From IMG/VR virus record IMGVR_UViG_3300027821_000001, positions 1-52,666 of that record: a stretch of 52,666 nt of DNA; one strand, written 5' to 3'. The notes under the pieces were generated by a model. That model searched no databases and was not told the origin of the DNA. It saw only the letters and a list, made by a program, of their open reading frames with translations. Shown here one piece after another: positions 3,300 through 52,040 of this stretch. A program made the position numbers and the translations under genes. Numbering within the stretch: position 1 is the stretch's first letter; each line of letters opens with the position of its first letter. The DNA is from a virus. Lineage: Duplodnaviria; Caudoviricetes.

Positions 3300-3350
3300 C
3301 CCCCGCGGGACGTTTTTGATCTTCTGAGAGCGAGACGTTGCCAAGGGGGC
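3299..3350 (+). other. Intergenic interrupted stem-loop
   Basis: GCCCCC/GGGGGC and ACGTTTT/GAGACGT pairings; no U-tract. Confidence 0.5.
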
Positions 3351-3369
3351 ATATGGGAGAGGAAAAATA

Positions 3370-3561
3370 ATGCCTGACAAATTTGTACTCCAGCACGATC
3401 GTTCGGGTACTATTCATCAGTTGAAACCAGGCGGTAAAACGACTTACTGTGGAAATGGCAACAACGGTGAAGCAGGCTATACCCGTAAACGACTTAGTAA
3501 AGCGAATGCTCATCCACAGGCGCATCATTGTAATACTCTAGCGTGTAGAGCAAATCGGTAA
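3370..3561 (+). CDS. His/Cys-containing hypothetical protein
   Basis: GAGG RBS; H..., T.CG and C...AC pattern suggests zinc binding. Confidence 0.65.
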   Translation: MPDKFVLQHDRSGTIHQLKPGGKTTYCGNGNNGEAGYTRKRLSKANAHPQAHHCNTLACRANR

Positions 3562-3563
3562 TA

Positions 3564-3688
3564 AGAACTCCCCAGACGGAAGTCAGGAACCATGGATAAC
3601 CTGGCGAACTGGGGTTCTCCGTAGGGCCAGATACGGAGACGGGTTGGCGACGCACCTGGCCAAAGCCTAGGTTTTGGTGAAGCGTCGC
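3564..3688 (+). ncRNA. Cluster of three intergenic stem-loops
   Basis: Stems 3564-3575/3609-3618, 3617-3623/3632-3638 and 3647-3653/3682-3688. Confidence 0.5.
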
Positions 3689-3709
3689 ATAATTTTCATC
3701 TCCTATAAT
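3685..3709 (+). promoter_or_regulatory. Phage promoter P1 (TCGC-N15-TATAAT)
   Basis: TCGC ATAATTTTCATCTCC TATAAT; motif recurs with fixed spacing. Confidence 0.8.
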
Positions 3710-3729
3710 GAAACCTAATAGGAGAAATT

Positions 3730-3939
3730 ATGTTGAATTCAGAGGCAGAAGCGATGCGAGATGAGCTCGTACGTTATACCGCTGAGCTTGACCAGATTCA
3801 ATCCAGTATCGATGAAGGTCGTCTGCTCTATGCAGATGATCCGATTTGTGTCAAGGAATTGGATCTGACTCAAGCTAATGTGGATCACGTTCGTCGCGAA
3901 ATCCGCATTGCTCGACTCTGTATCAAAGAACTTTCCTAG
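3730..3939 (+). CDS. Hypothetical protein (P1 cassette)
   Basis: AGGAG RBS, between P1 and a terminator. Confidence 0.75.
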   Translation: MLNSEAEAMRDELVRYTAELDQIQSSIDEGRLLYADDPICVKELDLTQANVDHVRREIRIARLCIKELS

Positions 3940-3945
3940 CAAGGC

Positions 3946-3980
3946 AAAAATCAGAGTTCTTCACGGACTTTGATTTTTTT
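3946..3980 (+). terminator. Intrinsic terminator
   Basis: TCAGAGTTC/GGACTTTGA stem followed by T7. Confidence 0.8.
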
Positions 3981-4001
3981 ATTTCGAAAGGAGGGTAGCG
4001 A

Positions 4002-4190
4002 ATGGAGGAGCGTCAAATCTTCTTCAAGAAGCAGACGCTTGGAAAGTGGCGGAGATCCGACGGCGAAAGCAAGAAGCTTGTCAATGAAGAATCGATGTTC
4101 CGAGAGATTCGCAAGCTGATTAATGACGGCTGGAATGTACAGTCTCATGGCGTTACTCTCCTGCGTGCGATCACTTTGACTAAGCGATAA
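4002..4190 (+). CDS. Hypothetical protein
   Basis: AAGGAGG RBS. Confidence 0.7.
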   Translation: MEERQIFFKKQTLGKWRRSDGESKKLVNEESMFREIRKLINDGWNVQSHGVTLLRAITLTKR

Positions 4191-4195
4191 AGACC

Positions 4196-4532
4196 CTCCG
4201 TGGGGCACCCGCGGAGATAGGACAGAGTTCCGCTTCTCTCATGCTGGGATGCTGGGATCACGGCTCTGTCTGGGCTCTAGTAGCGGGAGGTCTGATCAAC
4301 CGAGGCGAGGCTAGAGTGTTAGCGGTACGATACCAAATGGAACCCGCCTAAACGATGCACGGTATTACGCGGCTGACATAAGTTTCAAAAGTTCGGAGGG
4401 GCAGCGGTAGCGCCGTACCTGGGTAGCACCCAGGAGGCCACTTATCTTCTAAGCTATAAGCTTCGGTTTGGAAATAAGTGGTCGGCCCCCCGATCACAGA
4501 CTGAGGGCCTCACTGCGGCGGGGCCTTCAGTC
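4196..4532 (+). ncRNA. ORF-free tract of consecutive stem-loops
   Basis: Stems 4196-4216, 4221-4229/4262-4270, 4274-4280/4311-4317, 4317-4323/4372-4378; multibranch ~4397-4490 with a cUUCGg loop; hairpin 4499-4532. Confidence 0.6.
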
Positions 4533-4546
4533 AAATTTCCAAACTA

Positions 4547-4926
4547 CTAAGTCGGAAACAACGTTGAGGAGACAGTCCAGTGGTGTGGATAAGGAGTAGC
4601 TACCTTATTCGTATCCGCGGGATGTGAGGTGGCTCGAAAAGGACTATACTGGTTGTAGCTTGCGGCCAGTTAGTCGTGAAGGCGGGACTCGGCAAACGCG
4701 TTGTGCAAGCAGCGTTAGTAGCAGCCGAATTAAAGATACCCGAGCAATGGGGAAATCCCTGAGCGGAGGTATTGGGCTAGTTTTACAAACTAGTACAGCG
4801 GTGATCCGGTAGGATAGAGAAGGCTCTGAAGAATTGATTGCTATTATACAATGGCAGTGAGCTCTTCGGTCGGGAGTTGCCACAACACTTCCTCTCACAG
4901 TCTCTTCAACGTTGTTTCTGACTTAG
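4547..4926 (+). ncRNA. Large (~380 nt) structured RNA, family not recognised
   Basis: 27-bp closing helix 4547-4573/4900-4926 whose only deviations are 2 G-U pairs; many nested helices. Confidence 0.78.
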
Positions 4927-4933
4927 ATTGAAT

Positions 4934-4982
4934 CTCCGAGGTACGCCCACTCTGCGCCACAGGTGGGTTGAACCCCTCGGAG
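4934..4982 (+). other. Stem-loop
   Basis: CTCCGAGG/CCTCGGAG enclosing GCCCAC/GTGGGT. Confidence 0.5.
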
Positions 4983-4985
4983 CTA

Positions 4986-5033
4986 GGGCAAGAGGCATTT
5001 GGGCCGCCGCAACGATGTCTCTTGCCCGCTTTT
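4986..5033 (+). terminator. Probable terminator ending the RNA tract
   Basis: GGGCAAGAGGCATT/GATGTCTCTTGCCC stem then GCTTTT (short U-tract). Confidence 0.55.
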
Positions 5034-5042
5034 CCACAGAAT

Positions 5043-5067
5043 TCGCATTAATTACACGTATCATAAT
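5043..5067 (+). promoter_or_regulatory. Phage promoter P2
   Basis: TCGC ATTAATTACACGTAT CATAAT. Confidence 0.75.
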
Positions 5068-5090
5068 AGATACTACTACGAAAGGAAATT

Positions 5091-5213
5091 ATGCGATTTC
5101 TTGGAACCCATGAGGAGGAAGTTGTGCAGGCGTTGGCCATTGTTGGCGCTTACATCGTTATCCGCAACGGCCTCTCGCTGGTTACAAGTCTTCGACGTTC
5201 ACTGTCGAAGTAG
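5091..5213 (+). CDS. Small hydrophobic protein (40 aa; P2 cassette)
   Basis: AAGGA RBS; MRFLGTHEEEVVQALAIVGAYIVIRNGLSLVTSLRRSLSK; not in ORF track. Confidence 0.7.
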   Translation: MRFLGTHEEEVVQALAIVGAYIVIRNGLSLVTSLRRSLSK

Positions 5214-5215
5214 CT

Positions 5216-5256
5216 AAAGAAAGGAGAGTCTTAACAAAGACTTTCCTTTTTTCTTT
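5216..5256 (+). terminator. Intrinsic terminator
   Basis: AAAGGAGAGTC/GACTTTCCTTT stem plus T-tract. Confidence 0.8.
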
Positions 5257-5306
5257 TCGCAGAAGTAACTGGTCCTTTCTTTTTTTCAAAAGTGAAAGGC
5301 TAATAC

Positions 5307-5504
5307 ATGCTTTATAGAACAGTCGAAACAAATGAGCGGGTTAGTGTAGACGCTGAACTAACTACTCGCTTTCGTTGGCGAGCAAATCGACTATGTCGAC
5401 AACTGAATGCCCAACGAGAAGTTGATTTCTATCGATTCGAAGTTCATCCTGTGGGTGACAAATGGGAAGTTGTAGCGATGCAAAACAGAGCCGAGCCAAT
5501 ATGA
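5307..5504 (+). CDS. Hypothetical protein
   Basis: AAGG RBS; coupled to the next ORF. Confidence 0.65.
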   Translation: MLYRTVETNERVSVDAELTTRFRWRANRLCRQLNAQREVDFYRFEVHPVGDKWEVVAMQNRAEPI

Positions 5505-5857
5505 GTGAAATGAAAATGGATGACGATCGTTTTAAAGCCGCCCTCGATCTGATGCGTCGAGCAGGAGCTAAGCAAGTTCAGATTCGTTACTCAGATGATG
5601 AACAACCTGTGGTTTGGTTTGTGGTAGCTTGCTATCTTAATGGTAAAGCCGAAGTAGATGCCAGTCTTGATCCAGTCAGAGCTGCGCTACGCTTGTGCGA
5701 ACGTTTGGTTGATGGAGGAATCTGTGCACATTGTAATCGACCAGCGGGCTTAGAACCAGATCAGATTGAAACTATGCCATTAAACGATTTGATTTGCTGG
5801 TATCTGTATGACCCCGAACTGAAGACCTTTCGACGAGGTTGTGAGGGAGATACTTAG
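5501..5857 (+). CDS. Hypothetical protein with CxxC
   Basis: ATGA-coupled start; GG.C.HC.RP motif. Confidence 0.7.
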   Translation: MSEMKMDDDRFKAALDLMRRAGAKQVQIRYSDDEQPVVWFVVACYLNGKAEVDASLDPVRAALRLCERLVDGGICAHCNRPAGLEPDQIETMPLNDLICWYLYDPELKTFRRGCEGDT

Positions 5858-6343: not shown

Positions 6344-6456
6344 TGGAGAACCAACAAACACAATGCGCATGCACGAAATGTTCAGAAAGGGTTTCTAAAG
6401 ATGATTGGACATATCCGTATTGTCCGCGGTGTTTTGCTAATCCTAAATGTAAATGA
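6343..6456 (+). CDS. Small Cys-rich protein (37 aa)
   Basis: TAATG and ATGA coupling on both sides; [13 protein letters not shown]...YCPRCF. Confidence 0.55.
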
Positions 6457-7634
6457 GTATGGAACTTAAGCCCCATCAGAGATCTGCACTCGACCAGCTC
6501 GCTAATGGCAAAATTCTCTGGGGCGGGGTTGGCTCAGGTAAGTCACAAGTAGCAGCAACTTACTACATCGAGGAAGAGCGACCACGAGATGTGTATGTGA
6601 TCACTACCGCCAAGAAACGTGACACGCTCGATTGGGAAGGTGAGTTTGCTCCTCACGGAATCGGTAAAACACGAGATGCAACTGTCTCTGGTTTGCTGAC
6701 CGTCGATAGTTGGAACAACATCCATAAGTACACTGAAGTTAGCGGTGCTTTCTTTATTTTCGACGAACAAAGATTGGTTGGATCTGGAACCTGGGTAAAG
6801 TCGTTTCTGAAGATTGCCCGCCAGAATCGCTGGATTCTGCTCTCTGCAACTCCGGGGGATACTTGGCTCGACTATATCCCGGTCTTCATCGCCAACGGTT
6901 TCTACAAGAATCGGACCGAATTCAAGCGCGAACACGTGGTCTACAAGCCGTTCAGCAAGTTTCCTAAGGTTGAGCGCTATCTGAACACCGGTCGTCTAAA
7001 TAGATATCGCAATCAGATCTTGGTGCCGATGGCTTACACCAAGCTGACTACCCGCCATTCACGCACGATTCCAGTCGACCATAATGAGGAACTGTTTCAA
7101 AGCGTATTGAAGAATCGCTGGAACATTTTCCTGAATCGGCCGATCCGTGATATCAGCGAAACTTTTGCTGTTTTACGGCGAATTGTGAATAGTGATCCCA
7201 GTCGGGTCAAAGCCGTGAGAGAGCTTCTAAGCACGCATCCTAAGCTGGTAGTGTTCTATAACTTTAACTATGAGTTAGAGCGTCTACGGGCTTTAGAGGA
7301 CGTTACAGCGGTAGCTGAGTGGAATGGACACAAGCACGAAGAGATCCCTGAGGGTAATAACTGGGTTTATCTAGTTCAGTACGTAGCGGGCTCAGAAGGC
7401 TGGAATTGCATCGAGACCGATACGATCGTTTTCTACTCATTGACCTATTCGTACAAGAACTGGGAACAAGCACATGGTAGAATTGATCGACTGAATACAC
7501 CATTCCTGGATCTCTACTACTATACTTTAAAAAGTAAGAACGCGGTCGACACTGCAATCTGGCGGAGTCTGAAAGCAAAACAGAATTTCAATGTCGCCAA
7601 ATTTCCGATCGAAACACTGAAAAATATGAGTTGA
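6453..7634 (+). CDS. SF2 (SNF2-like) DNA helicase
   Basis: LKPHQ Q-motif, GVGSGKS Walker A, FDEQ Walker B, LSATP motif [11 protein letters not shown] motif VI. Confidence 0.9.
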
Positions 7635-7650
7635 AAGTCATAAAACAGCG

Positions 7651-7955
7651 TTGCCAAGATTTTTGCCAAGATTTTTAAATTATAGGAAAAGCCGCATTTT
7701 GCAGGGATTTTGTGCAATTTTGCTTGCCAAGAAAACACGTCCAAAAAGTCCCCTAGGGAATGTCATATAGTATCTAATTTTCTATACCCACGCGCGACCC
7801 CAAAGATAATATATATAATACCTAATAATAGATATTAACTAGAGAATCTATAGAGAGTTCTTCCTCAAAAAATCTTGGCAAGGAAAATAGGGCTCAAACC
7901 CGCATGAACAAAGGGATTGCACTACTTCAAGAAATCTTGGCAAAAATCTTGGCAA
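7651..7955. repeat. Putative replication origin: TTGCCAAG iterons in inverted arrangement around an AT-rich core
   Basis: Perfect 24-bp inverted repeat 7651-7674/7932-7955; extra iterons at 7724 (+) and 7874 (-); AT-rich 7761-7850. Confidence 0.65.
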
Positions 7956-8062
7956 AGGAAGGAGGTTGTTCATCAAGACTACTCACAAGTTAAAGGTGTT
8001 GAGAGATCCCCAAGGCTACGCAGCTTTCCCAAGTGCTTTTAAACGGGTGGAGAAAGAAGGTT

Positions 8063-8557
8063 ATGGAAAACTGGATGTCAATAGAAAATTTCCCCGGATA
8101 TAGCGTAAGCGACCGTGGAAGGATCCGCACTGACAAGTCTGGCAGAATCTTGGTGCTCTCCGAGAATCAATTTGGTCTATTACAAGTAGGAATGATGCGA
8201 GATGGAGTCCAACACCACAGATCGGTCCCACTCCTGGTGGCTAAGGCTTTTATTCCTGAGCCTGTTGGTCCTTTTGATACTCCCATTAATCTTGATGGTG
8301 ATCGACATAATAATAGTATTGAGAACCTAGTTTGGCGACCACGTTGGTTTGCGATCAAATACAACCAGCAGTTTCGTTATCCATATGAAATGCCGATTCT
8401 AACACCAATCGAAGATTTGAAAACTGGCGAAATAAGTGAAAATTCAACTGAGTGTGCAAAAAGATACGGTTTGCTCGAGCAAGACCTAGTACTTTCAATT
8501 CTAAATCGCACTTATGTATGGCCTACATATCAAGAATTTGGTATCGTACGAGATTAG
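8063..8557 (+). CDS. NUMOD4/HNH-family protein with degenerate active site
   Basis: W..I..FPGY.VS..GRIR NUMOD4 motif; LVAKAF...INLDGDRHNN..ENL.W, with Asn at the catalytic His position. Confidence 0.8.
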   Translation: MENWMSIENFPGYSVSDRGRIRTDKSGRILVLSENQFGLLQVGMMRDGVQHHRSVPLLVAKAFIPEPVGPFDTPINLDGDRHNNSIENLVWRPRWFAIKYNQQFRYPYEMPILTPIEDLKTGEISENSTECAKRYGLLEQDLVLSILNRTYVWPTYQEFGIVRD

Positions 8558-9546: not shown

Positions 9547-10048
9547 TCAATATCATTGGATCCACTATACACCGGATCGATTGATTGAACGTTGGACTTC
9601 AGCTCAAGCCGGAGCATATGGTGTCGCGCAGCATGATTATGCTCAGAGAGAAATTCAAGCTGGTCGAGTTTCGGATCTCGTCGGAACTGTGGGTATGTAT
9701 ATTAACGACGCGATTCAACATAGAATGACCTGCGAACAAGTTCTATTTTACTCTGAGAATTGTTTTGGTACTGCAGATACAATCTCCTTTCGATACAATA
9801 CTCTTCGAATTCATGATCTAAAAACTGGCGTGTATCCAGGCTCAGTACATCAACTCGAAGTTTACGCAGCTTTGTTTTGTCTTGAATACGATAAGAATCC
9901 ATTCGAGATTAAAATTGAACTTCGAATCTATCAAGATGATGAAGTTTCGGTCTATGATGCTGACCCAGAGGATATTATGTTTATCATGGAAAGAATTCAA
10001 GAATTCGATAAAGTAATCAATCATCGAAGACTAGAGGAGGAGTCGTGA
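9491..10048 (+). CDS. PD-(D/E)XK exonuclease-like protein (DUF2800/Cas4-like)
   Basis: HAFLSPS, EQ.L, FGTAD, IHDLKTG and QL.VYA motifs. Confidence 0.8.
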   Translation: MRFNRHLNLQGEHAFLSPSQYHWIHYTPDRLIERWTSAQAGAYGVAQHDYAQREIQAGRVSDLVGTVGMYINDAIQHRMTCEQVLFYSENCFGTADTISFRYNTLRIHDLKTGVYPGSVHQLEVYAALFCLEYDKNPFEIKIELRIYQDDEVSVYDADPEDIMFIMERIQEFDKVINHRRLEEES

Positions 10049-12786
10049 TTCGTACTCATGAGGATCATCTTGCGCATTACGGTATCCTCCGACGTTCCGG
10101 CCGTTATCCTTGGGGATCTGGTGGTACTCAAAATAAGCGCAATCGAGACTTTCTCGATATGGCGGCTAATTTAAAAAAGCAAGGGATGACTGAAAAACAA
10201 ATTGCCGATGGTATGGGTATTACGATTAAAGAACTTCGTGGTGCTCGAACAGTTGCTCTTGCTCAGCAGCGACAAACGAATATTCTTACTGCGCAGCGTC
10301 TGAAAGATAAGGGTTGGTCTAATACCGCAATTGGTGAACGTATGGGTCATCCCGAATCGACAATTCGTGGTTGGCTTTCTCCAGGTGCAAAAGATAAGGC
10401 GAGTGCACTCGAGACCACAGCCAATATGCTCAAGGAGCAAGTCGATAAGAAGAAGTATGTTGATGTAGGTAAAGGTGTTGAACATCAACTAGGCATTACT
10501 AATTCTCGACTCAATAATGCGCTTGCTGTTTTGAAGGAACAAGGATACCCCGTTCATACCATTTATGTTGAGCAAGTTAACATTCGTGGTAAGTTTACAC
10601 CGATGCAGGTATTGGCTCGACCAGGCACTAAGCTTTCTGAAGTCCAGCAAAACAGAAGAGAAATTCAACAGATTCAAGAACAGTCGATCGATCATGGTCG
10701 AAGTTACTTTAGTCCTCAGGCTCCTCTTTCCGTTGGTTCTAGACGAATCGGTGTTGTTTACGGTAAAGAAGGTGCTAAGGCAGATGGCATGATTTATGTT
10801 CGTCCTGGTGTACCCGATCTTGCTATTGGAAACAATCGTTACGGTCAAGTTCGAATCTTGGTTGATGGTACACACTACTTGAAAGGCATGGCGGTTTATA
10901 AGGAGGATCTTCCTCCGGGCAAGGATCTGATCTTTAATACAAAGGCTGCTGATACCGGACGTAAAAAAGATGCTATGAAACCAATCTCTGAAGATCCGGA
11001 TCTTCCGTTTGGTTCTATCATTCGACAAGTACATGATCCAAAAACGGGTAATGTTACCTCGGCTATGAATCTAGTTGGCAGTCCAACTAAAGAAGGATCT
11101 GGAGAAGAAGGTCAATGGGATACTTGGTCTCGAAATCTTTCGTCCCAGTTTCTGTCTAAGCAAAGTCCAGCTCTAGCAAAGCAGCAACTTGATCTAACTT
11201 ACGATCGGCGCAAAAGAGAATTCGATGAAATCAATGCGCTCACAAATCCAACAGTTCGGAAAGATTTGCTTGAGAAATTTGCAGATCAAACCGATGCTGC
11301 AGCTGTACATCTTAAGTCTGCCGCTTTGCCGCGACAAGCAACTAAAGTTCTAATTCCCGTTCCATCCATGAAACCAACTGAAATTTATGCCCCCACCTTC
11401 AAAGATGGCGACCGTGTTGTTTTGGTTCGTTATCCTCATGGTGGAACATTTGAAATTCCTCAACTGACAGTGAATAATCGCAATCGTGAAGCACGCAAGC
11501 TAATCGGAACTGGTGCTGATAGTACGAGACACGATGCTGTTGGTATTCATCATAAGGTTGCACAACGTTTGTCTGGTGCAGACTTCGATGGTGATACGGT
11601 GCTTATCATTCCTAACAAGAGTGGAAAGATTGAAAGTACCGCTGCTCTAGAAGGATTGAAGGGCTTCGATCCGATGACCTATAAACTACCCAAAGATTCT
11701 CCCATTCCTCGTATTACTAATGCTCGCAAACAAAATGAGATGGGTAAAATCTCCAATCTAATTACGGACATGACTCTTCAAGGAGCGGATACAGATAAAC
11801 TCTCTCGTGCGATTAGACACTCCATGGTTGTTATTGATTCGGAAAAACATGGGCTTGATTTTGCTCAGTCAGAGAAAGATCATGGTATTCTTGATTTGAA
11901 AGAAGAGTATCAAGGTTCGAAGCGAGCAGGTGCTCAGACCATAATCAGTAGGAAAAAATCGCCCATTCGCATAGAAGAGAGAAGACTTAGGTCTGCAGCA
12001 AGAGGTGGACCGATTGATCCTGTCACAGGCAAGAAAGTTTTCGAACCAACTGGACGTACGTTTCCAGAACGTAAACGTGTAAAGGATCCTAAGACAGGAA
12101 AGATGGTCACCGTTAAAACTGGAGTACAGATTAAAAGGAAAGAAGAACATCGAAAGCTGGCTGTAGTTGATGACGCGTTCGATGTCATTCCGAAAGAACG
12201 TACTCCTACCTCTATGGAAGTACTCTATGCAACTCACTCTAATAAACTAAAAGCTTTGGCTAATGAAGCTAGGAAAGAAACAGTAACGATTAAAGGTACC
12301 CCCTATTCTAAGTCAGCCAAGAAGGTATACGAAACCGAAGTGGCTTCAATTAATGCTAAACTTAACCGGGCCGAGAAGAATGCCCCCTACGAAAGACAGG
12401 CCCACCTGTTAGCAAACGCCAATGTCTCCCAGAAGAAACAGGTTAACCCACAGATCGAGGCTGCTGAAGAGAAGAAGATTCGACAACAGGAGTTGAATAC
12501 AGCAAGAGTTAGAACAGGTGCAAAGAAGTATAAGATCGATCTTACTCAAGAGGAGTGGAATGCTATTCAAGCTGGTGCAATCACTCCCTCTAAACTGGAA
12601 AGAGTTCTGAACAATAGTGATAGCGATACCGTTAAGGTATTGGCTATGCCCAAGCATACACCAACAATGACAAGCAGTAAGGTACGTCGTGCTCAGGCTA
12701 TGTTGAACTCTGGGTACACACAGGCTGAGGTAGCTGATGCATTAGGTGTAGGCTTGACCACACTCAAGGTAAGTCTTACTGAGTGA
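10045..12786 (+). CDS. Single-chain two-barrel (YonO/QDE-1-like) RNA polymerase with N- and C-terminal HTH domains
   Basis: ADG (10780), QVR...LKGM (10846-10890), VRYP (11425), GADFDGD (11575-11595), GKISN and HSMVVIDSEK in the order found in cellular RdRp/YonO. Confidence 0.8.
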   Translation: MIRTHEDHLAHYGILRRSGRYPWGSGGTQNKRNRDFLDMAANLKKQGMTEKQIADGMGITIKELRGARTVALAQQRQTNILTAQRLKDKGWSNTAIGERMGHPESTIRGWLSPGAKDKASALETTANMLKEQVDKKKYVDVGKGVEHQLGITNSRLNNALAVLKEQGYPVHTIYVEQVNIRGKFTPMQVLARPGTKLSEVQQNRREIQQIQEQSIDHGRSYFSPQAPLSVGSRRIGVVYGKEGAKADGMIYVRPGVPDLAIGNNRYGQVRILVDGTHYLKGMAVYKEDLPPGKDLIFNTKAADTGRKKDAMKPISEDPDLPFGSIIRQVHDPKTGNVTSAMNLVGSPTKEGSGEEGQWDTWSRNLSSQFLSKQSPALAKQQLDLTYDRRKREFDEINALTNPTVRKDLLEKFADQTDAAAVHLKSAALPRQATKVLIPVPSMKPTEIYAPTFKDGDRVVLVRYPHGGTFEIPQLTVNNRNREARKLIGTGADSTRHDAVGIHHKVAQRLSGADFDGDTVLIIPNKSGKIESTAALEGLKGFDPMTYKLPKDSPIPRITNARKQNEMGKISNLITDMTLQGADTDKLSRAIRHSMVVIDSEKHGLDFAQSEKDHGILDLKEEYQGSKRAGAQTIISRKKSPIRIEERRLRSAARGGPIDPVTGKKVFEPTGRTFPERKRVKDPKTGKMVTVKTGVQIKRKEEHRKLAVVDDAFDVIPKERTPTSMEVLYATHSNKLKALANEARKETVTIKGTPYSKSAKKVYETEVASINAKLNRAEKNAPYERQAHLLANANVSQKKQVNPQIEAAEEKKIRQQELNTARVRTGAKKYKIDLTQEEWNAIQAGAITPSKLERVLNNSDSDTVKVLAMPKHTPTMTSSKVRRAQAMLNSGYTQAEVADALGVGLTTLKVSLTE

Positions 12787-13892: not shown

Positions 13893-14264
13893 GTGCCAGC
13901 AAGGAGAAGAAGATCAGAGCCTGAACAGCAAATTCCTCGTCGACCCGCGACCACTCCCGAAGGTCGTGAAGATCAACTCGTGTCGCAAGCGATCGATCTT
14001 GCCGAGCAGCAAATTCGCGATGGCACAGCTTCCTCGCAGGTGATCACTCATTTTTTGAAGCTGGGTTCAACTCGCGAACAGCTGGAGCAGGAACGACTCG
14101 AGCATGAAAATGAATTGACGCGAGTCAAGATCGAAGCGATCGAATCTCAGAAGCGTGTGGAAGAACTATACCTGGAAGCTCTTACAGCAATGCGCACATA
14201 TGCAGGATCTGAGCCAAGATCGGATGAAGATGATCAAGACCAGAACGTACTCAGAGCTGTCTAA
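13893..14264 (+). CDS. terS: Terminase small subunit (putative)
   Basis: RPA.TPEGRE.QL...A.DLAE.Q...GTASSQVITHFLKLGS motif; position before the HNH gene. Confidence 0.6.
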   Translation: MPARRRRSEPEQQIPRRPATTPEGREDQLVSQAIDLAEQQIRDGTASSQVITHFLKLGSTREQLEQERLEHENELTRVKIEAIESQKRVEELYLEALTAMRTYAGSEPRSDEDDQDQNVLRAV

Positions 14265-14643
14265 ACTAGAAACGTTCGACGAGCGATACGAGTATCTAAA
14301 GTTGGGTGGAGTTACCGGAAGTATTACTTTTGGCTTCGATCGTTGGATTAATCAACGTTTTTACAAATCGCCTGAGTGGGAAACTACTCGAGATCACGTT
14401 ATTATCCGAGATCATGGCTGTGATTTAGGAGTTCCTGGTTACGAGATTTTCGCACAACTTATTGTGCATCATATGAACCCAATTTCGTTGAATAATCTTT
14501 TACACGGAGACCAGGCCATTATTGATCCAGAGTTCCTAATAACTACATCTTTGCGTACACATAACGCTATTCACTATGGTAATTTCAATCTTCTACCTCG
14601 AGATCCTGTAGAAAGACAACGAGGTGATACTACGCTTTGGTGA
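14224..14643 (+). CDS. HNH endonuclease (terminase-associated)
   Basis: FY.S.EW...R..VI.RD.GC...VHHMNP...LIT....THNAIH motif. Confidence 0.85.
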   Translation: MKMIKTRTYSELSKLETFDERYEYLKLGGVTGSITFGFDRWINQRFYKSPEWETTRDHVIIRDHGCDLGVPGYEIFAQLIVHHMNPISLNNLLHGDQAIIDPEFLITTSLRTHNAIHYGNFNLLPRDPVERQRGDTTLW

Positions 14644-48251: not shown

Positions 48252-48281
48252 AAAATCCCAACCCTTGAGAAGGGGGGTTTG

Positions 48282-51200
48282 ATGGATTTTTATCAGATCC
48301 TCTCTAGAGAAACCAAGGATAAGGGTATGGAATTGTACCCGGACTTTATCGTCGGACGTTCTCAGGATCTGATGGTTCAAGGACGGACCTTTTATGCTAT
48401 TTGGGATGAAGAAAAAGGTCTTTGGTCTCGTGACGAGTATGATGTTCAGCGGTTGGTAGATGAAGATCTAGAAACCGAAGCTGATAGGTTGCGACAAAAG
48501 ACAGGAATAAACTACATAGTCAAATACATGCGCTCGTTTCAAAGTAACAGCTGGGCGCTATTTAGAAAATTCCTGGCGAATATCAGTGATAACAGCCGAC
48601 CTCTAGATGCTAAAGTTCTGTTTTCGAATTCGGAGGTAAAGAAAACAGACTACGCAAGTAGAACGCTGAGCTACGCCTTGGGAGAAGGTGATATTTCGGC
48701 GTGGGAGGAGCTCGTTGGAACGTTATACTCTGTAGAAGAACGAGCCAAAATCGAATGGGCTATCGGATCCATTGTGGCTGGCGATTCAAAGAAGATTCAA
48801 AAATTCTTTGTGTTCTATGGCCCAGCTGGATCCGGTAAGTCCACGATTTTAAATGTGTTGCATAAATTGTTTGAAGGCTATACTACTACTTTTGACGGCA
48901 AAGCGTTAGGGCGTGCCGACAGTTCATTCTCTACAGAAGCCTTCAAGCATAATCCCCTAGTGGCTATTCAACATGATGGTGATCTGTCCAAACTTGAGGA
49001 TAATACTCGGTTAAATTCAATCGTTTCTCACGAACAGATGATGATGAACGAGAAATACAAGCCGAGTTATACTGCACGAGCCGATGCATTGCTATTTATC
49101 GGTACAAACCAGCCTGTGAAAATCACGGATGCCAAATCGGGAATCATTCGTCGCTTGGTTGATATTCATCCGACAGGCGTAAAAATTCCGGTTAGGCATT
49201 ACAACACTTTGTTGAGTCAGATTGAGTTTGAATTAGGAGCGATCGCTTCTCATTGTCAGTTGGCATATTTAGCAATGGGTAAAAATTACTACAACAGTTA
49301 TCGCCCATTGGAAATGATGTTACAAACCGATGTCTTCTTCAACTTCATCGAATCATATTACGACGTCTTCAAGTCACAAAATTACACGACTTTGAAGCAG
49401 GCATACGGTTTGTACAAGGAATTCTGTTTGGAAAGTGGGATTGACCGTCCCTTGCCGCAATACAAAATCCGCGAAGAGCTTCGTGATTACTTTGACGATT
49501 TCAAAGATCGAGGCGAAGTGGATGGCGAAATGGTCCGCAGCTTATACCGCGGTTTCAATGCGGAGAAGTTCAAAGCGCCAATCGAAAGTGATGATGATTT
49601 GCCCGCGTTTTCATTGGTGATGGATGAGACAGAGTCACTCTTTGACGCCGAGTTTTCCGGACAACCGGCTCAGTTGGCGAACAAGGAGGAAGTCCCTTCT
49701 CAAAAATGGGTAAATGTCAAAACTAGACTTTCAGATATTGATACATCGAAATTACACTATGTCAGAGTACCCGAAAAACTGATCGTCATTGACTTCGATC
49801 TGAAGGCGACAGATGGACATAACCAACTTGAGCGTAATCTCGAAGCGGCTAGCCAATGGCCAGCAACTTATGCAGAGCTCAGCAAGTCGGGCACGGGTGT
49901 ACACCTTCATTACGAATATGGCGGAGATCCAACGGAGTTGGCCCTTGTATATTCCGAGGGAATTGAGGTTAAAGTGTTTACAGGAGATGCGTCATTACGA
50001 CGACGATTATCTCGCTGTAACGCAGTTCCAATCGCCTCGATAGATAGTGGACTTCCGCTTAAGCAGAAGAAGGAGAAGATGCTTAAGGCTAAGACTATTA
50101 CTAGTGAAAAAGGTCTTAGACAGCTAATCGAGCGAAATCTTCGGAAAGAAATTCATCCTGGAACTAAGCCTTCGGTTGATTTCATAGCCCATATTCTCGA
50201 GGAGGCCTATGAATCTGATTTGAAATACGATGTTACGGATCTACGGCCACGTATTTTAGCGTTTGCCAATAATAGTACTCATCAAGCCTCGACCTGCTTG
50301 AAGACTGTGCAAACGATGAAATTTCAATCCGAGCCAGAGTTAGGTCCGGACTCAACTGTACCAACGGATGATGAACGGATGGCTATATTTGACGTTGAGG
50401 TGTATCCAAATCTATTCGTTATCTGTTGGAAGTTTCGTGGCAGCGATACAGTCGTTAGGATGATCAATCCCACTCAGGCAGAAGTTGAGAACTTGACTAA
50501 ACTAAAACTGGTGGGTTTCTACAATCGTCGCTTCGATAATCATATTCTCTATGCGGCCGTGTTGGGTTATAGTATTAAGCAACTATATGACTTAGCTCAC
50601 AAGATAGTTGTCGATAACAACCGTAATGTGATGTTTGCTCAGGCATATAATCTCTCCTATGCTGACGTATGGGATTTCAGTTCAATTAAACAAAGCTTGA
50701 AGAAATTTGAGATTGATCTAGGTATTCATCATATGGAATTGGACTTGCCCTTGGATCAGCCGGTAGCTGAAGAGGATTGGCCCCGAGTGGTTGAATATTG
50801 TGTCAACGATGTTCGAGCAACTGAATCCGTGCTAGAAGATCGTTGGGAGGATTTCGTCGCTCGGCAAATCCTAGCTGAGCTCAGTGGTTTAACGGTTAAT
50901 GATACTACGCAAAGACATACAGCGAAGATCATATTTGGAGATGATAAAAATCCTCAACAATATTTTGTCTATACCGATCTTAGTGAACAATTTGCCGGTT
51001 ATACTTTCGATGCTGGAAAGAGTTGGTATCGTGGAGAAGACCCAGGGGAAGGTGGTTATGTCTACGCCGAACCTGGAATTTATGCTGACGTTGCTTTGCT
51101 TGACATCGCTTCGATGCATCCCACCACGATCGAAATTCTCAATCTTTTTGGTAAGTATACCGCAAAATTCAGTGAACTCAAATCAGCTCGATTGGCCATT

Positions 51201-52040
51201 AAACGAAGGGACTTCGGCACTGCTAGAAAAATGATAGATGGTCGTTTAGCCCCCTATCTCGAAAATGAAGATGGAGCAGACAAGCTGGCATTTGCCTTGA
51301 AAATTGTGATCAATAGTGTCTATGGATTAACCTCAGCTTCATTTCCTAATCCATTCAAAGACTATCGCAATAAAGATAATATTGTTGCCAAGCGTGGTGC
51401 TCTCTATATGATTGATTTGAAAAACGACCTCAAAGATGCTTTCTATTCCGTTGTCCATATTAAGACGGACTCAGTCAAGCTTCCCTATGCTCATTCCGCA
51501 GATACACATGTGATTGATTTCGTCAAAGAACATGGAGCTCGTTATGGCTACGAGTTTGAACACGAGATAACCTATGAAAAGATATGCCTTGTCAACGACG
51601 CAGTCTATATTGCTTATAAGGATGGTCAATGGACTGCTGTTGGTTCTCAGTTTCAACATCCATATATTTTTAAAACTCTGTTCTCTGGAGAAGCGCTTAC
51701 TTTTGACGACTTCTGCGAAAGTAAGAACGTGGTTCAGGGAACTATGTACCTAGATAGAGAGGAACACGACAAAGATGAAGAACTTTCTATTGAGAACATG
51801 CGTCACGTTGGCCGCTCTGGGCGGTTTGTACCTGTTCAAGAAGGAGGTGGCACCCTCTATCGCGTCAAAGATGAAAAGTATTACGCGGTAACAGGTACTA
51901 AAGGTCATCGCTGGATTGAGGCCGAAATTGCTCAATCGATGCCAGATCTGAAAATCGACGTGTCATATTTCGAGAAGCTCAAAGATGACGCAATAAAAAC
52001 AATCGAAAAGTTCGGTTCCTTCCAGGAGTTTGTCTCATGA
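48282..52040 (+). CDS. Fused SF3 helicase / AEP primase / 3'-5' exonuclease / family B DNA polymerase
   Basis: GPAGSGKST Walker A; VIDFD and SKSG.GVHLH primase motifs; FDVEVY exonuclease; LDIASMHPT, KIVINSVYG and KTDS PolB motifs. Confidence 0.9.
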   Translation: MDFYQILSRETKDKGMELYPDFIVGRSQDLMVQGRTFYAIWDEEKGLWSRDEYDVQRLVDEDLETEADRLRQKTGINYIVKYMRSFQSNSWALFRKFLANISDNSRPLDAKVLFSNSEVKKTDYASRTLSYALGEGDISAWEELVGTLYSVEERAKIEWAIGSIVAGDSKKIQKFFVFYGPAGSGKSTILNVLHKLFEGYTTTFDGKALGRADSSFSTEAFKHNPLVAIQHDGDLSKLEDNTRLNSIVSHEQMMMNEKYKPSYTARADALLFIGTNQPVKITDAKSGIIRRLVDIHPTGVKIPVRHYNTLLSQIEFELGAIASHCQLAYLAMGKNYYNSYRPLEMMLQTDVFFNFIESYYDVFKSQNYTTLKQAYGLYKEFCLESGIDRPLPQYKIREELRDYFDDFKDRGEVDGEMVRSLYRGFNAEKFKAPIESDDDLPAFSLVMDETESLFDAEFSGQPAQLANKEEVPSQKWVNVKTRLSDIDTSKLHYVRVPEKLIVIDFDLKATDGHNQLERNLEAASQWPATYAELSKSGTGVHLHYEYGGDPTELALVYSEGIEVKVFTGDASLRRRLSRCNAVPIASIDSGLPLKQKKEKMLKAKTITSEKGLRQLIERNLRKEIHPGTKPSVDFIAHILEEAYESDLKYDVTDLRPRILAFANNSTHQASTCLKTVQTMKFQSEPELGPDSTVPTDDERMAIFDVEVYPNLFVICWKFRGSDTVVRMINPTQAEVENLTKLKLVGFYNRRFDNHILYAAVLGYSIKQLYDLAHKIVVDNNRNVMFAQAYNLSYADVWDFSSIKQSLKKFEIDLGIHHMELDLPLDQPVAEEDWPRVVEYCVNDVRATESVLEDRWEDFVARQILAELSGLTVNDTTQRHTAKIIFGDDKNPQQYFVYTDLSEQFAGYTFDAGKSWYRGEDPGEGGYVYAEPGIYADVALLDIASMHPTTIEILNLFGKYTAKFSELKSARLAIKRRDFGTARKMIDGRLAPYLENEDGADKLAFALKIVINSVYGLTSASFPNPFKDYRNKDNIVAKRGALYMIDLKNDLKDAFYSVVHIKTDSVKLPYAHSADTHVIDFVKEHGARYGYEFEHEITYEKICLVNDAVYIAYKDGQWTAVGSQFQHPYIFKTLFSGEALTFDDFCESKNVVQGTMYLDREEHDKDEELSIENMRHVGRSGRFVPVQEGGGTLYRVKDEKYYAVTGTKGHRWIEAEIAQSMPDLKIDVSYFEKLKDDAIKTIEKFGSFQEFVS

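What the first reader, a model, noticed from the sequence alone, without database searches (positions are those of the whole stretch)
4547..4926. ~380-nt highly structured RNA closed by a 27-bp helix
Seen: CTAAGTCGGAAACAACGTTGAGGAGAC pairs with GTCTCTTCAACGTTGTTTCTGACTTAG. Both deviations are G-U on the + strand, which points to selection on RNA rather than a DNA inverted repeat. Nested helices include 4587-4594/4603-4610, 4623-4629/4893-4899, GTGGC/GCCAC, 4642-4675, TCGGC/GCCGA, GATACC/GGTATT, CTAGTT/AACTAG and 4826-4869. No credible ORF is present. I cannot match it to RNase P, tmRNA or a self-splicing intron. Inference: a possibly new class of large phage ncRNA, comparable in concept to GOLLD/ROOL.
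Basis: partly seen in the sequence, partly recalled or inferred. Interest (0 to 1): 0.82.

Follow-up and report, generated by a model that had tools for sequence, protein, structure and literature searches.

The report
New large structured phage RNA
A soil phage carries a roughly 380-base RNA gene that folds into an elaborate, evolutionarily maintained shape, matches no catalogued RNA family, and shares one small hairpin with the giant phage RNA called GOLLD, so it adds a new member to the short list of large phage RNAs whose job is still unknown.

Summary
Window 4547-4926 folds on the + strand to -161.6 kcal/mol (z -8.97) against -116.3 (z -4.96) on the - strand. Rfam 15 gives no hit. One homologue was found in a metagenome contig of a related phage (L119 1621-2017, about 69-72% identical). 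On the two sequences 109 consensus pairs are all kept. Nineteen of them changed on both sides, against 1-5 in slid controls, and 18-20 are G-U on the + strand. The 27-bp stem is almost wholly different in sequence in L119 but still pairs. Two small metatranscriptome runs hold contigs of the element's interior only. The element is one cassette in an ORF-free island of several conserved structured RNAs whose content and order differ between related phages. Some relatives carry Pistol ribozymes there. Its most conserved hairpin, CAAUGGGGRAAUCCCUGAG, recurs in the 5' region of GOLLD RNAs, but the similarity does not extend further. Best reading: a new family of large phage ncRNA, probably released through its long stem. 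Its function is unknown. It is rare, found in 1 of 89 distinct related upstream regions.

The parts
4547..4573 (+). P1, 5' strand of the 27-bp closing helix
   Evidence: Pairs with 4900-4926 in the MFE fold, with 2 G-U. In L119 the outer sequence is different but pairs over 24 bp with 1 G-U. 8 of 21 aligned pairs changed on both sides.
4900..4926 (+). P1, 3' strand
   Evidence: As for the 5' strand. The inner block CACAGTCTCTT (4896-4906) is invariant between the two members.
4575..4623 (+). P2 long hairpin directly inside P1
   Evidence: 18 consensus pairs, 3 with changes on both sides.
4624..4629 (+). P3, 5' strand; together with 4893-4898 it closes the multi-helix core
   Evidence: 6 pairs, 2 with changes on both sides.
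4893..4898 (+). P3, 3' strand
4631..4689 (+). P4 (4631-4636/4683-4689) enclosing hairpin P5 (4640-4677), flanked by invariant blocks GTGGCTCGAAAAGGA (4629-4643) and GTCGTGAAGGCGGGAC (4673-4688)
   Evidence: P5 has 2 pairs changed on both sides. P4 never varies except one G-C/G-U.
4690..4727 (+). P6-P8 hairpin (CGGC/GCCG closing) with invariant GTTAGTAGCAG (4714-4724)
4735..4773 (+). P9 hairpin carrying the motif CAATGGGGAAATCCCTGAG (4745-4763). Its loop reads GAAA here and GGAA in L119.
   Evidence: Invariant apart from the R position. The same 19-mer lies in the 5' region of 5 GOLLD loci. An HMM of GOLLD 5' regions, built independently of this element, has its best hit in the window at 4738-4772, E 9e-4.
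4775..4796 (+). P10 hairpin
   Evidence: 6 pairs, 1 changed on both sides.
4796..4826 (+). P11/P12 small junction hairpin within the longest invariant block, CAGCGGTGATCCGGTAGGATAG (4796-4817), plus GAAGGCTC (4819-4826)
   Evidence: No variation, so these pairs are neither supported nor contradicted by covariation.
4826..4869 (+). P13/P14 hairpin; 12 nt longer in L119
4872..4892 (+). P15 hairpin, preceded by invariant TCGGTCGGGAGTT (4866-4878)
4191..5090 (+). The ORF-poor, GC-richer island that holds the element. It contains module A (about 4261-4394), module B (about 4384-4496), hairpin T (4500-4531), element C, hairpin D (4934-4973) and hairpin E (4976-5019, followed by GCTTTTCC).
   Evidence: GC is 0.523 in 4001-5000. 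Fold of the island. Modules A and B are conserved with compensatory pairs in other phages. Locus L053 has B, D and E adjoining with no T or C.

Best explanation
Window 4547-4926 is the gene of a structured non-coding RNA of a family not yet catalogued, read from the + strand like every gene of this complete 52.7-kb phage with direct terminal repeats.

Shown:
- The fold is far more stable than chance and is strand-specific.
- A second member in a related phage keeps every consensus helix through many compensatory and G-U changes, while long single-stranded joining blocks stay invariant.
- The element has no conserved reading frame.
- It is one self-contained cassette in an island of several other conserved structured RNAs. 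The composition and order of that island differ from phage to phage.

Inferred:
- The island is transcribed as one early precursor (about 0.6).
- The perfect 24-27-bp P1 duplex is cut by the host's RNase III, releasing a stable core of about 330-370 nt. This would play the role that Pistol self-cleaving ribozymes play for neighbouring RNAs in related phages and upstream of GOLLD (about 0.5).
- The released RNA acts in trans as a compact scaffold that displays a GNRA-type hairpin shared with the 5' cap region of GOLLD RNA. It would therefore address the same, still unknown, partner or contact during infection (about 0.3).

It is a rare accessory element rather than a core function of this phage group.
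For: Fold: + strand -161.6 kcal/mol, z -8.97, 0 of 100 shuffles as good; - strand -116.3, z -4.96. The homologue gives + -167.5, z -7.18 and - -128.3, z -5.40.

Homologue: L119 1621-2017, nhmmer E 5.6e-40; 258 of 374 aligned columns identical.

Structure conservation:
- 109 consensus pairs, 218 of 218 cells paired.
- 19 pairs changed on both sides, against 1-5 when the 3' partners are slid by 1-3 columns and 9.6 +/- 2.1 in shuffles (0 of 500 reach 19).
- 20 of 109 pairs in the window and 18 of 109 in L119 are G-U on the + strand; these would be A-C on the other strand.
- P1 is only 23 of 42 positions identical yet fully paired, whereas junction blocks of 10-22 nt are invariant.

No known family.

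No conserved ORF: and the indels.

Expression hint: RNA-library contigs cover 4615-4813 and 4630-4813 in two runs of one study, and nothing else of 3900-5400. That study is not among those flagged as a possible source of the window's DNA. The variant C4745T in those contigs turns a C-G pair into U-G.

Cassette context:
- The element follows A, B and T in the window, but follows an ORF stop and precedes A and F in L119.
- It is absent between B and D in L053.
- A different module of about 170 nt (F) sits in the same slot in L015 and L035.
- Pistol ribozymes lie in the syntenic island of L026 and L027.

GOLLD link:
- The 19-mer taken only from the window/L119 comparison hits 6 IMG/VR contigs. 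Five of them carry GOLLD (198-216 bits), with the motif on the same strand 5' of the Rfam model.
- A GOLLD 5'-region HMM finds the window's hairpin as its top hit.
- With up to 3 substitutions allowed, the motif occurs nowhere else in 1.75 Mb of fetched loci.
Against: - Only two members are known. The consensus structure was derived from the same two sequences, so the 100% pairing is partly by construction, and no R-scape-type statistic is possible.
- The RNA evidence consists of assembled contigs at depth 3-5 from tiny libraries. DNA carry-over cannot be excluded. No 5' or 3' ends, strand or abundance can be read from them, and one variant (G4750A, one run) would break a pair in the conserved hairpin.
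- A strain variant in a DNA run (G4580A) breaks one P2 pair.
- No promoter-like site was found in 3300-5600: 0 against 2.2 expected.
- RNase III cleavage, trans action and any partner are inference only.
- The GOLLD similarity is confined to about 20-35 nt. The element's covariance model aligns only the hairpin in GOLLD loci (16 bits, E about 0.0015). A GOLLD-segment model scores the window at 18.6 bits, E 0.53, and does not list L119.
- The element is absent from the other 88 of 89 distinct related upstream regions, so whatever it does is dispensable for the phage group.
Confidence: 0.62

Rival explanations
1. The element is a free-standing, diverged relative of the GOLLD 5' (cap) domain, that is a member of the GOLLD superfamily rather than a new family, and it oligomerises as that domain does.
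For: It shares the invariant hairpin CAAUGGGGRAAUCCCUGAG, in the same local context (helix, AA bulge, 5-bp stem, A bulge), in two GOLLD 5'-region types that are only 56% identical to each other. Its size (380 nt) is close to the 420-nt 5' region described for GOLLD env-38 (passage read). Both lie in phage ncRNA islands where Pistol ribozymes occur.
Against: There is no similarity beyond the hairpin by covariance model in either direction or by HMM (35 nt only). The Rfam GOLLD model has no hit in the window. The apparent parallel in the order of the next two hairpins (alignment) has no statistical support.
Confidence: 0.12
2. The element is a cis-acting part of the early transcript (a processing, stability, termination or antitermination element, or a leader for downstream genes), not a trans-acting RNA.
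For: It lies between hairpins that look like terminators or processing sites (T at 4500-4531, E at 4976-5019 followed by GCTTTTCC). A long dsRNA stem is a classic RNase III site in phage early transcripts (general knowledge).
Against: Its neighbours differ completely in the two phages: D, E and a 40-aa ORF follow it in the window, modules A and F in L119. It is therefore not tied to any downstream gene. About 300 nt of conserved multi-helix core with invariant junctions is far more than a processing site needs.
Confidence: 0.14
3. The element is a DNA-level mobile element (MITE-like, with terminal inverted repeats) that happened to land in the island.
For: It has 27-bp terminal inverted repeats. 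It is present or absent among relatives at a defined slot, and the island is mosaic.
Against: - The 'repeats' are the least conserved part (23 of 42 positions), while the interior is conserved. This is the reverse of a transposase-recognised end.
- There is no target-site duplication at either copy (flanks read).
- It is single-copy in the phage.
- A scan for the arm sequence in IMG/VR found nothing, and two conserved-block scans of 185,579 species genomes found nothing.
- All arm mismatches are G-U on one strand.
Confidence: 0.04
4. It is a DNA structure (replication origin, packaging site or cruciform).
For: It has a long inverted repeat in a non-coding gap near the genome's left end.
Against: The fold shows strand asymmetry, and 18-20 G-U pairs are spread over all helices. 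There are no iterons or AT-rich tract. A separate AT-rich iteron region that fits an origin better lies at 7651-7955.
Confidence: 0.03

Closest known systems
GOLLD RNA (Rfam RF02032)
   Same: It is a large, ornate, phage-encoded ncRNA of unknown function lying in an ncRNA island. It shares an invariant hairpin of about 19 nt with the GOLLD 5' region. Pistol ribozymes occur next to GOLLD and in the islands of this phage's relatives.
   Different: It is 380 nt and single-domain, against more than 800 nt and two domains. It has no match to the GOLLD model, which covers the 3' region. No similarity outside the hairpin was found. It is closed by a 24-27-bp terminal helix. Oligomerisation was not tested.
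ROOL RNA (Rfam; accession recalled as RF03087)
   Same: It belongs to the same general kind: a large structured RNA of phages and prophages with unknown function, reported to form a cage (Kretsch et al., passages read).
   Different: There is no Rfam match. No shared motif was looked for specifically.
RNase III processing stems of rRNA precursors and phage early transcripts (for example T7 R sites; general knowledge)
   Same: A long, nearly perfect duplex formed by the 5' and 3' flanks of a stable RNA, here 27 bp and 24 bp.
   Different: Cleavage was not shown here. The host and its RNase III are unknown.
Phage tRNA and ncRNA arrays
   Same: Tandem, abutting, self-contained structured RNAs whose content and order vary between related phages. 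A relative's island holds a tRNA-like sequence after a Pistol ribozyme.
   Different: ARAGORN finds no tRNA or tmRNA in the window. The modules A, B, C and F are not in Rfam.

Membership tests
GOLLD (RF02032) | Match to the Rfam covariance model (conserved 3' region) | tested here: not met
   No hit at gathering score in the window and none at E<=10 in 4100-5200. The same search gave 198-216 bits on true GOLLD loci.
GOLLD (RF02032) | Two-domain RNA of about 800 nt (5' region, linker, 3' region) | tested here: not met
   The element is 380 nt and closed on itself by P1. Its flanks hold other modules.
GOLLD (RF02032) | Similarity to the less conserved 5' region | tested here: inconclusive
   A 19-nt hairpin is shared. 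No extension was found by covariance model.
GOLLD / ROOL | RNA-only homo-oligomeric cage | not testable with these tools
   Needs SEC or cryo-EM of the transcript.
ROOL, OLE, raiA, HEARO, RNase P, tmRNA, group I and II introns, known ribozymes and riboswitches (Rfam 15) | Match to the family's covariance model | tested here: not met
   0 matches at gathering score. At E<=10, only six chance-level hits to unrelated models. L119 gave none at E<=1. ARAGORN found none.
MITE or other element with terminal inverted repeats | Conserved ends, target-site duplication, multiple copies | tested here: not met
   The ends are the least conserved part. No duplication at the flanks. One copy in the genome. 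Scans found no other copies.
RNase III substrate | Uninterrupted dsRNA of about two helical turns or more | tested here: met
   27 bp in the window and 24 bp in L119, with G-U as the only non-Watson-Crick pairs. Cleavage itself is not testable here.
Pistol-flanked RNA cassette | Pistol ribozyme adjacent to the RNA | tested here: not met
   No Pistol match in the window or in L119. It is present in relatives L026 and L027 and 5' of GOLLD in L197, L201 and L202.

The most novel reading that the evidence does not exclude
The element is a stand-alone cousin of the GOLLD cap domain. After excision it self-assembles into a ring or cage and points the shared GNRA hairpin at the same target as GOLLD does. 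That hairpin may be the counterpart of GOLLD's L11a, which Kretsch et al. describe as the only conserved loop not used for assembly; this mapping was not tested here. On this reading the surrounding island is a shuffling array of RNA 'parts' (A, B, C, F, Pistol, tRNA-like) that soil phages exchange as cassettes. Large phage RNAs would then be modular, with a common functional hairpin that could finally be used to fish for GOLLD's partner.
Probability: 0.13. Interest if true: 0.9.

Novelty: new variant of a known kind. Interest (0 to 1): 0.7.

Why it matters
Very few large structured phage RNAs are known (GOLLD and ROOL are the main ones), and none has a known function. This element adds a compact family of about 380 nt with clear structural conservation. 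It sits in a previously undescribed array of at least four uncatalogued structured RNAs in a widespread group of soil phages.

The invariant hairpin shared between this RNA and the GOLLD 5' region is a concrete handle. A motif kept identical in otherwise unrelated scaffolds is likely to be the functional contact, and it can be mutated or used as bait. The cassette-like gain, loss and reordering of modules also suggests how such RNAs spread.

Tried and rejected
Sequence searches that found nothing:
- blastn ('distant') of 4200-5100 against INPHARED phages.
- The same for L119 1621-2300.
- The same for a GOLLD 5' region.

Collection scans that found nothing:
- P1 arm pattern in IMG/VR.
- Block GGTGATCCGGTAGGATAG in IMG/VR.
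- Two-block pattern in IMG/VR and in species genomes.
- A second two-block pattern in species genomes.

Because only exact matches are found, these blanks are weak.

I used the spurious 84-aa minus-strand ORF (4644-4898) as a degenerate probe in the search for related loci against IMG/VR and JGI metagenomes. It found nothing, and it also missed L119, which is a contig of the metagenome collection. This negative is therefore uninformative.

A scan for a module-B 20-mer in IMG/VR returned only the contig already held as L053.

nhmmer, blastn and the covariance model R1 over 189-193 related loci found only L119.

A second look for extended GOLLD homology did not go beyond the hairpin (R1 on GOLLD loci; GOLLD-segment model R2; GOLLD 5' HMM). 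The visual parallel in the following hairpins is therefore not claimed. The sixth motif hit (L200) lies inside a 297-aa ORF on the other strand and is taken as chance.

Promoter and terminator scans were at chance level. The weak CRISPR-DR41 hit at 4535-4559 (E 0.044) is rejected, because there is no repeat array.

The long inverted repeat at 7651-7955 was examined as a possible second copy of the same kind of element. It was rejected: it is an AT-rich iteron region.

Runs X6 and X9 (small shares) and the parts of the stretch without RNA cover are not used as evidence.

Literature searches turned up no description of this RNA. They cover only the held open-access library. Supplements were not consulted, and they could hold GOLLD alignments or sequences bearing on the motif mapping.

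Papers:
- Kretsch et al.: passages, section 5 in full, and passages of the Nature version.
- Ren et al. 2026: abstract and outline only.
- Weinberg 2017: search listing only.
- Weinberg 2009 (GOLLD discovery): recalled, not read.
- The label 'YonO-like' for the phrog_4291 polymerase and the ROOL accession are recalled.

Full report
**What the window is.** The window is a whole virus record of 52,666 bp with direct terminal repeats, estimated complete. All sizeable ORFs lie on the + strand. It is a tailed phage. Its recognisable genes are:
- a helicase (6453-7634);
- HNH endonucleases (8033-8557 and 14155-14643);
- a 913-aa polymerase of phrog_4291, annotated 'RNA-dependent RNA polymerase' (10045-12786);
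- terminase, portal, protease and tail genes (15-42 kb);
- a 1253-aa primase-polymerase (48279-52040).

The nearest isolates by the polymerase (under 60% identity) are Streptomyces, Arthrobacter and Gordonia phages. The host of this 45% GC phage is unknown. The finding lies in the left-end region of small ORFs. It sits inside a stretch (about 4191-5090) that lacks credible ORFs and is richer in G+C than its surroundings (0.523).

**The observation.** The arms 4547-4573 and 4900-4926 pair over 27 bp with two G-U pairs. The 380-nt stretch folds to -161.6 kcal/mol, against -114.1 +/- 5.3 for shuffles (z -8.97). The reverse strand reaches only -116.3 (z -4.96). This is well beyond chance and is strand-biased. 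GTGGC/GCCAC is not conserved, and GATACC/GGTATT is specific to this copy.

**Known families.** Rfam 15 gives nothing at gathering score in the whole window, and only chance-level hits at E<=10 around the element. ARAGORN finds no tRNA or tmRNA. INPHARED has no similar DNA.

**Relatives and the search for homologues.** Anchoring on the polymerase and the helicase brought in 33 + 80 loci from IMG/VR and 80 from metagenome contigs. Of 193 related loci, 104 have at least 2 kb upstream of the helicase, giving 89 distinct upstream regions. nhmmer and blastn found the element in exactly one of them: L119 1621-2017 (E 5.6e-40). The two copies share 258 of 374 aligned columns, with 29 gap columns. A covariance model of the core (R1, 297 positions) again finds only the window and L119 among 189 loci. 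Near-identical DNA occurs in runs of three DNA studies, some of which are possibly the source sample.

**Structure conservation.** RNAalifold on the pair gives 109 pairs in 15 helices. All 218 cells are paired. Nineteen pairs changed on both sides and sixteen on one side to or from G-U. Sliding the 3' partners by 1-3 columns leaves 39-44% paired and 1-5 double changes; 0 of 500 column shuffles reach the observed values. These figures carry the usual caveat that the structure was derived from the same two sequences.

Three features point to RNA rather than DNA:
- G-U pairs number 20 (window) and 18 (L119) of 109, spread over the helices.
- The - strand folds 39-45 kcal/mol worse in both members.
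- P1 is the least conserved part in sequence (23 of 42 positions) yet stays a perfect 24-27-bp duplex. Unpaired junction blocks of 10-22 nt are invariant: GAGACAGTCC, GTGGCTCGAAAAGGA, GTCGTGAAGGCGGGAC, GTTAGTAGCAG, CAGCGGTGATCCGGTAGGATAG, TCGGTCGGGAGTT and CACAGTCTCTT.

No reading frame is shared, and indels are mostly not multiples of three.

**Expression.** Two small metatranscriptome runs from one rhizosphere study hold contigs covering 4615-4813 and 4630-4813 at 95-99% identity. That study is not among those flagged as a possible source of the window's DNA. The runs hold nothing else of the 1501 nt laid, which include coding sequence on both sides. The variant C4745T converts C-G to U-G. 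G4750A (one run, depth 3.4) would break a pair. This is a hint that the interior accumulates as RNA. The contigs cannot show ends, strand or level, and DNA carry-over is not excluded.

**Context: a modular island.** The island folds into a chain of self-contained structures:
- Module A (about 4261-4394) recurs in L035/L039, L048/L051 and L119.
- Module B (about 4384-4496) recurs in L053 (L116 and L130 hold the same upstream region) and L120.
- Module F, of about 160 nt and absent from the window, recurs in L119, L035, L015 and L120.

Each shows compensatory pairs: 9 of 29, 7 of 38 and 8 of 34 pairs. None is in Rfam.

The order differs between phages:
- Window: A, B, hairpin T, C, D, E.
- L119: a homologue of the 62-aa ORF 4002-4190 (71% identity) ends 7 nt before C, followed directly by A and F.
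- L053: B, D, E with nothing between B and D.
- L015 and L035: F sits directly 5' of D.

The syntenic islands of L026 and L027 hold Pistol ribozymes (45 and 41 bits). The element is thus one exchangeable cassette in an array, not a leader of a particular gene and not tied to any conserved protein gene.

**The GOLLD link.** All conserved-block scans were blank except one. The block CAATGGGGRAATCCCTGAG (4745-4763) matched 6 IMG/VR contigs. Five of them carry GOLLD RNA by Rfam (198-216 bits). The motif lies on the GOLLD strand 5' of the model's start, in the GOLLD 5' region that the Rfam model does not cover. Three of the five have a Pistol ribozyme just upstream.

These five represent two 5'-region types that are only 56% identical to each other. 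The motif sits in the same local fold as in the element. An HMM built only from those GOLLD 5' regions has its best hit in the 52.7-kb window at 4738-4772 (E 9e-4) and hits L119 at 1820-1839 (E 0.016). Allowing 3 substitutions, the motif occurs nowhere else in 1.75 Mb of fetched loci. The sixth hit is inside an ORF and is taken as chance.

The loop reads GAAA or GGAA in all cases, which is a GNRA pattern (my reading). Kretsch et al. state that GOLLD's 5' region (residues 1-420) forms the cap of the cage, and that L11a, sequence GAAA, is the only conserved loop not engaged in assembly. Whether that loop is this hairpin I could not check. Beyond the hairpin no similarity is detectable, so I do not file the element under GOLLD.

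**Mechanism.**
- Shown: a conserved, strand-specific, non-coding fold, and its cassette behaviour.
- Inferred: co-transcription with the island; excision through P1 by RNase III, since 24-27 uninterrupted base pairs make a standard substrate; and action in trans as a scaffold presenting the shared hairpin.

Rivals are given separately, with odds: a cis-acting processing or regulatory element, a diverged GOLLD 5' domain, a MITE-like element, and a DNA site. The last two are contradicted by the pattern of conservation, the lack of target duplications and the G-U bias.

**Novelty and verdict.** This is a real feature and a new family within the known kind 'large structured phage ncRNA of unknown function'. 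No description was found in four literature searches of the held library. It is rare and so far has two members, which limits the statistics. The shared hairpin with GOLLD and the surrounding array of uncatalogued RNAs raise its interest.

Noticed in passing
window 7635-8032 (repeats at 7651-7676, 7868-7881, 7930-7955): An AT-rich gap between the helicase and HNH genes carries TTGCCAAGATTTTT iterons in direct and inverted orientation, forming a 24-26-bp long-range inverted repeat. Many relatives have 24-42-bp long-range inverted repeats directly after the helicase gene. It looks like a DNA-level site (origin or regulatory region), not an RNA like the finding.
   Followed up: partly
window about 4261-4394 (module A) and about 4384-4496 (module B); L119 2138-2296 (module F): Three further conserved structured RNA modules lie in the same island. 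Each recurs in a few related phages with compensatory base pairs, and none is in Rfam. Module B is a three-way junction closed by GGGGC/GCCCC.
   Followed up: partly
L026 2572-2621; L027 4851-4923: Pistol self-cleaving ribozymes lie in the syntenic ncRNA island of related phages. In L026 the ribozyme is followed by a sequence with a tRNA-like T arm (read).
   Followed up: no
L197 837-912, L201 11396-11471, L202 8127-8202 (all - strand): A Pistol ribozyme sits directly 5' of the GOLLD 5' region in three GOLLD loci, and there are tmRNA-model hits nearby. This suggests that ribozyme cleavage defines the GOLLD 5' end in these phages.
   Followed up: no
window 4002-4190: A 62-aa ORF with no family match immediately precedes the ncRNA island in the window, in L119 (71% identity, ending 7 nt before the element) and in L015 (57%).
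   Followed up: no
window 4934-5026: Hairpins D and E follow the element and have counterparts after the islands of L015 and L053. E is a 14-bp GC-rich stem followed by GCTTTTCC, possibly the terminator of the island. The consensus scan did not call it.
   Followed up: no
window 10045-12786: A 913-aa protein matches phrog_4291 end to end ('RNA-dependent RNA polymerase', 1178 bits). About 250 actinobacteriophage, Lactococcus and other phage records hold relatives, mostly annotated as helix-turn-helix proteins.
   Followed up: no
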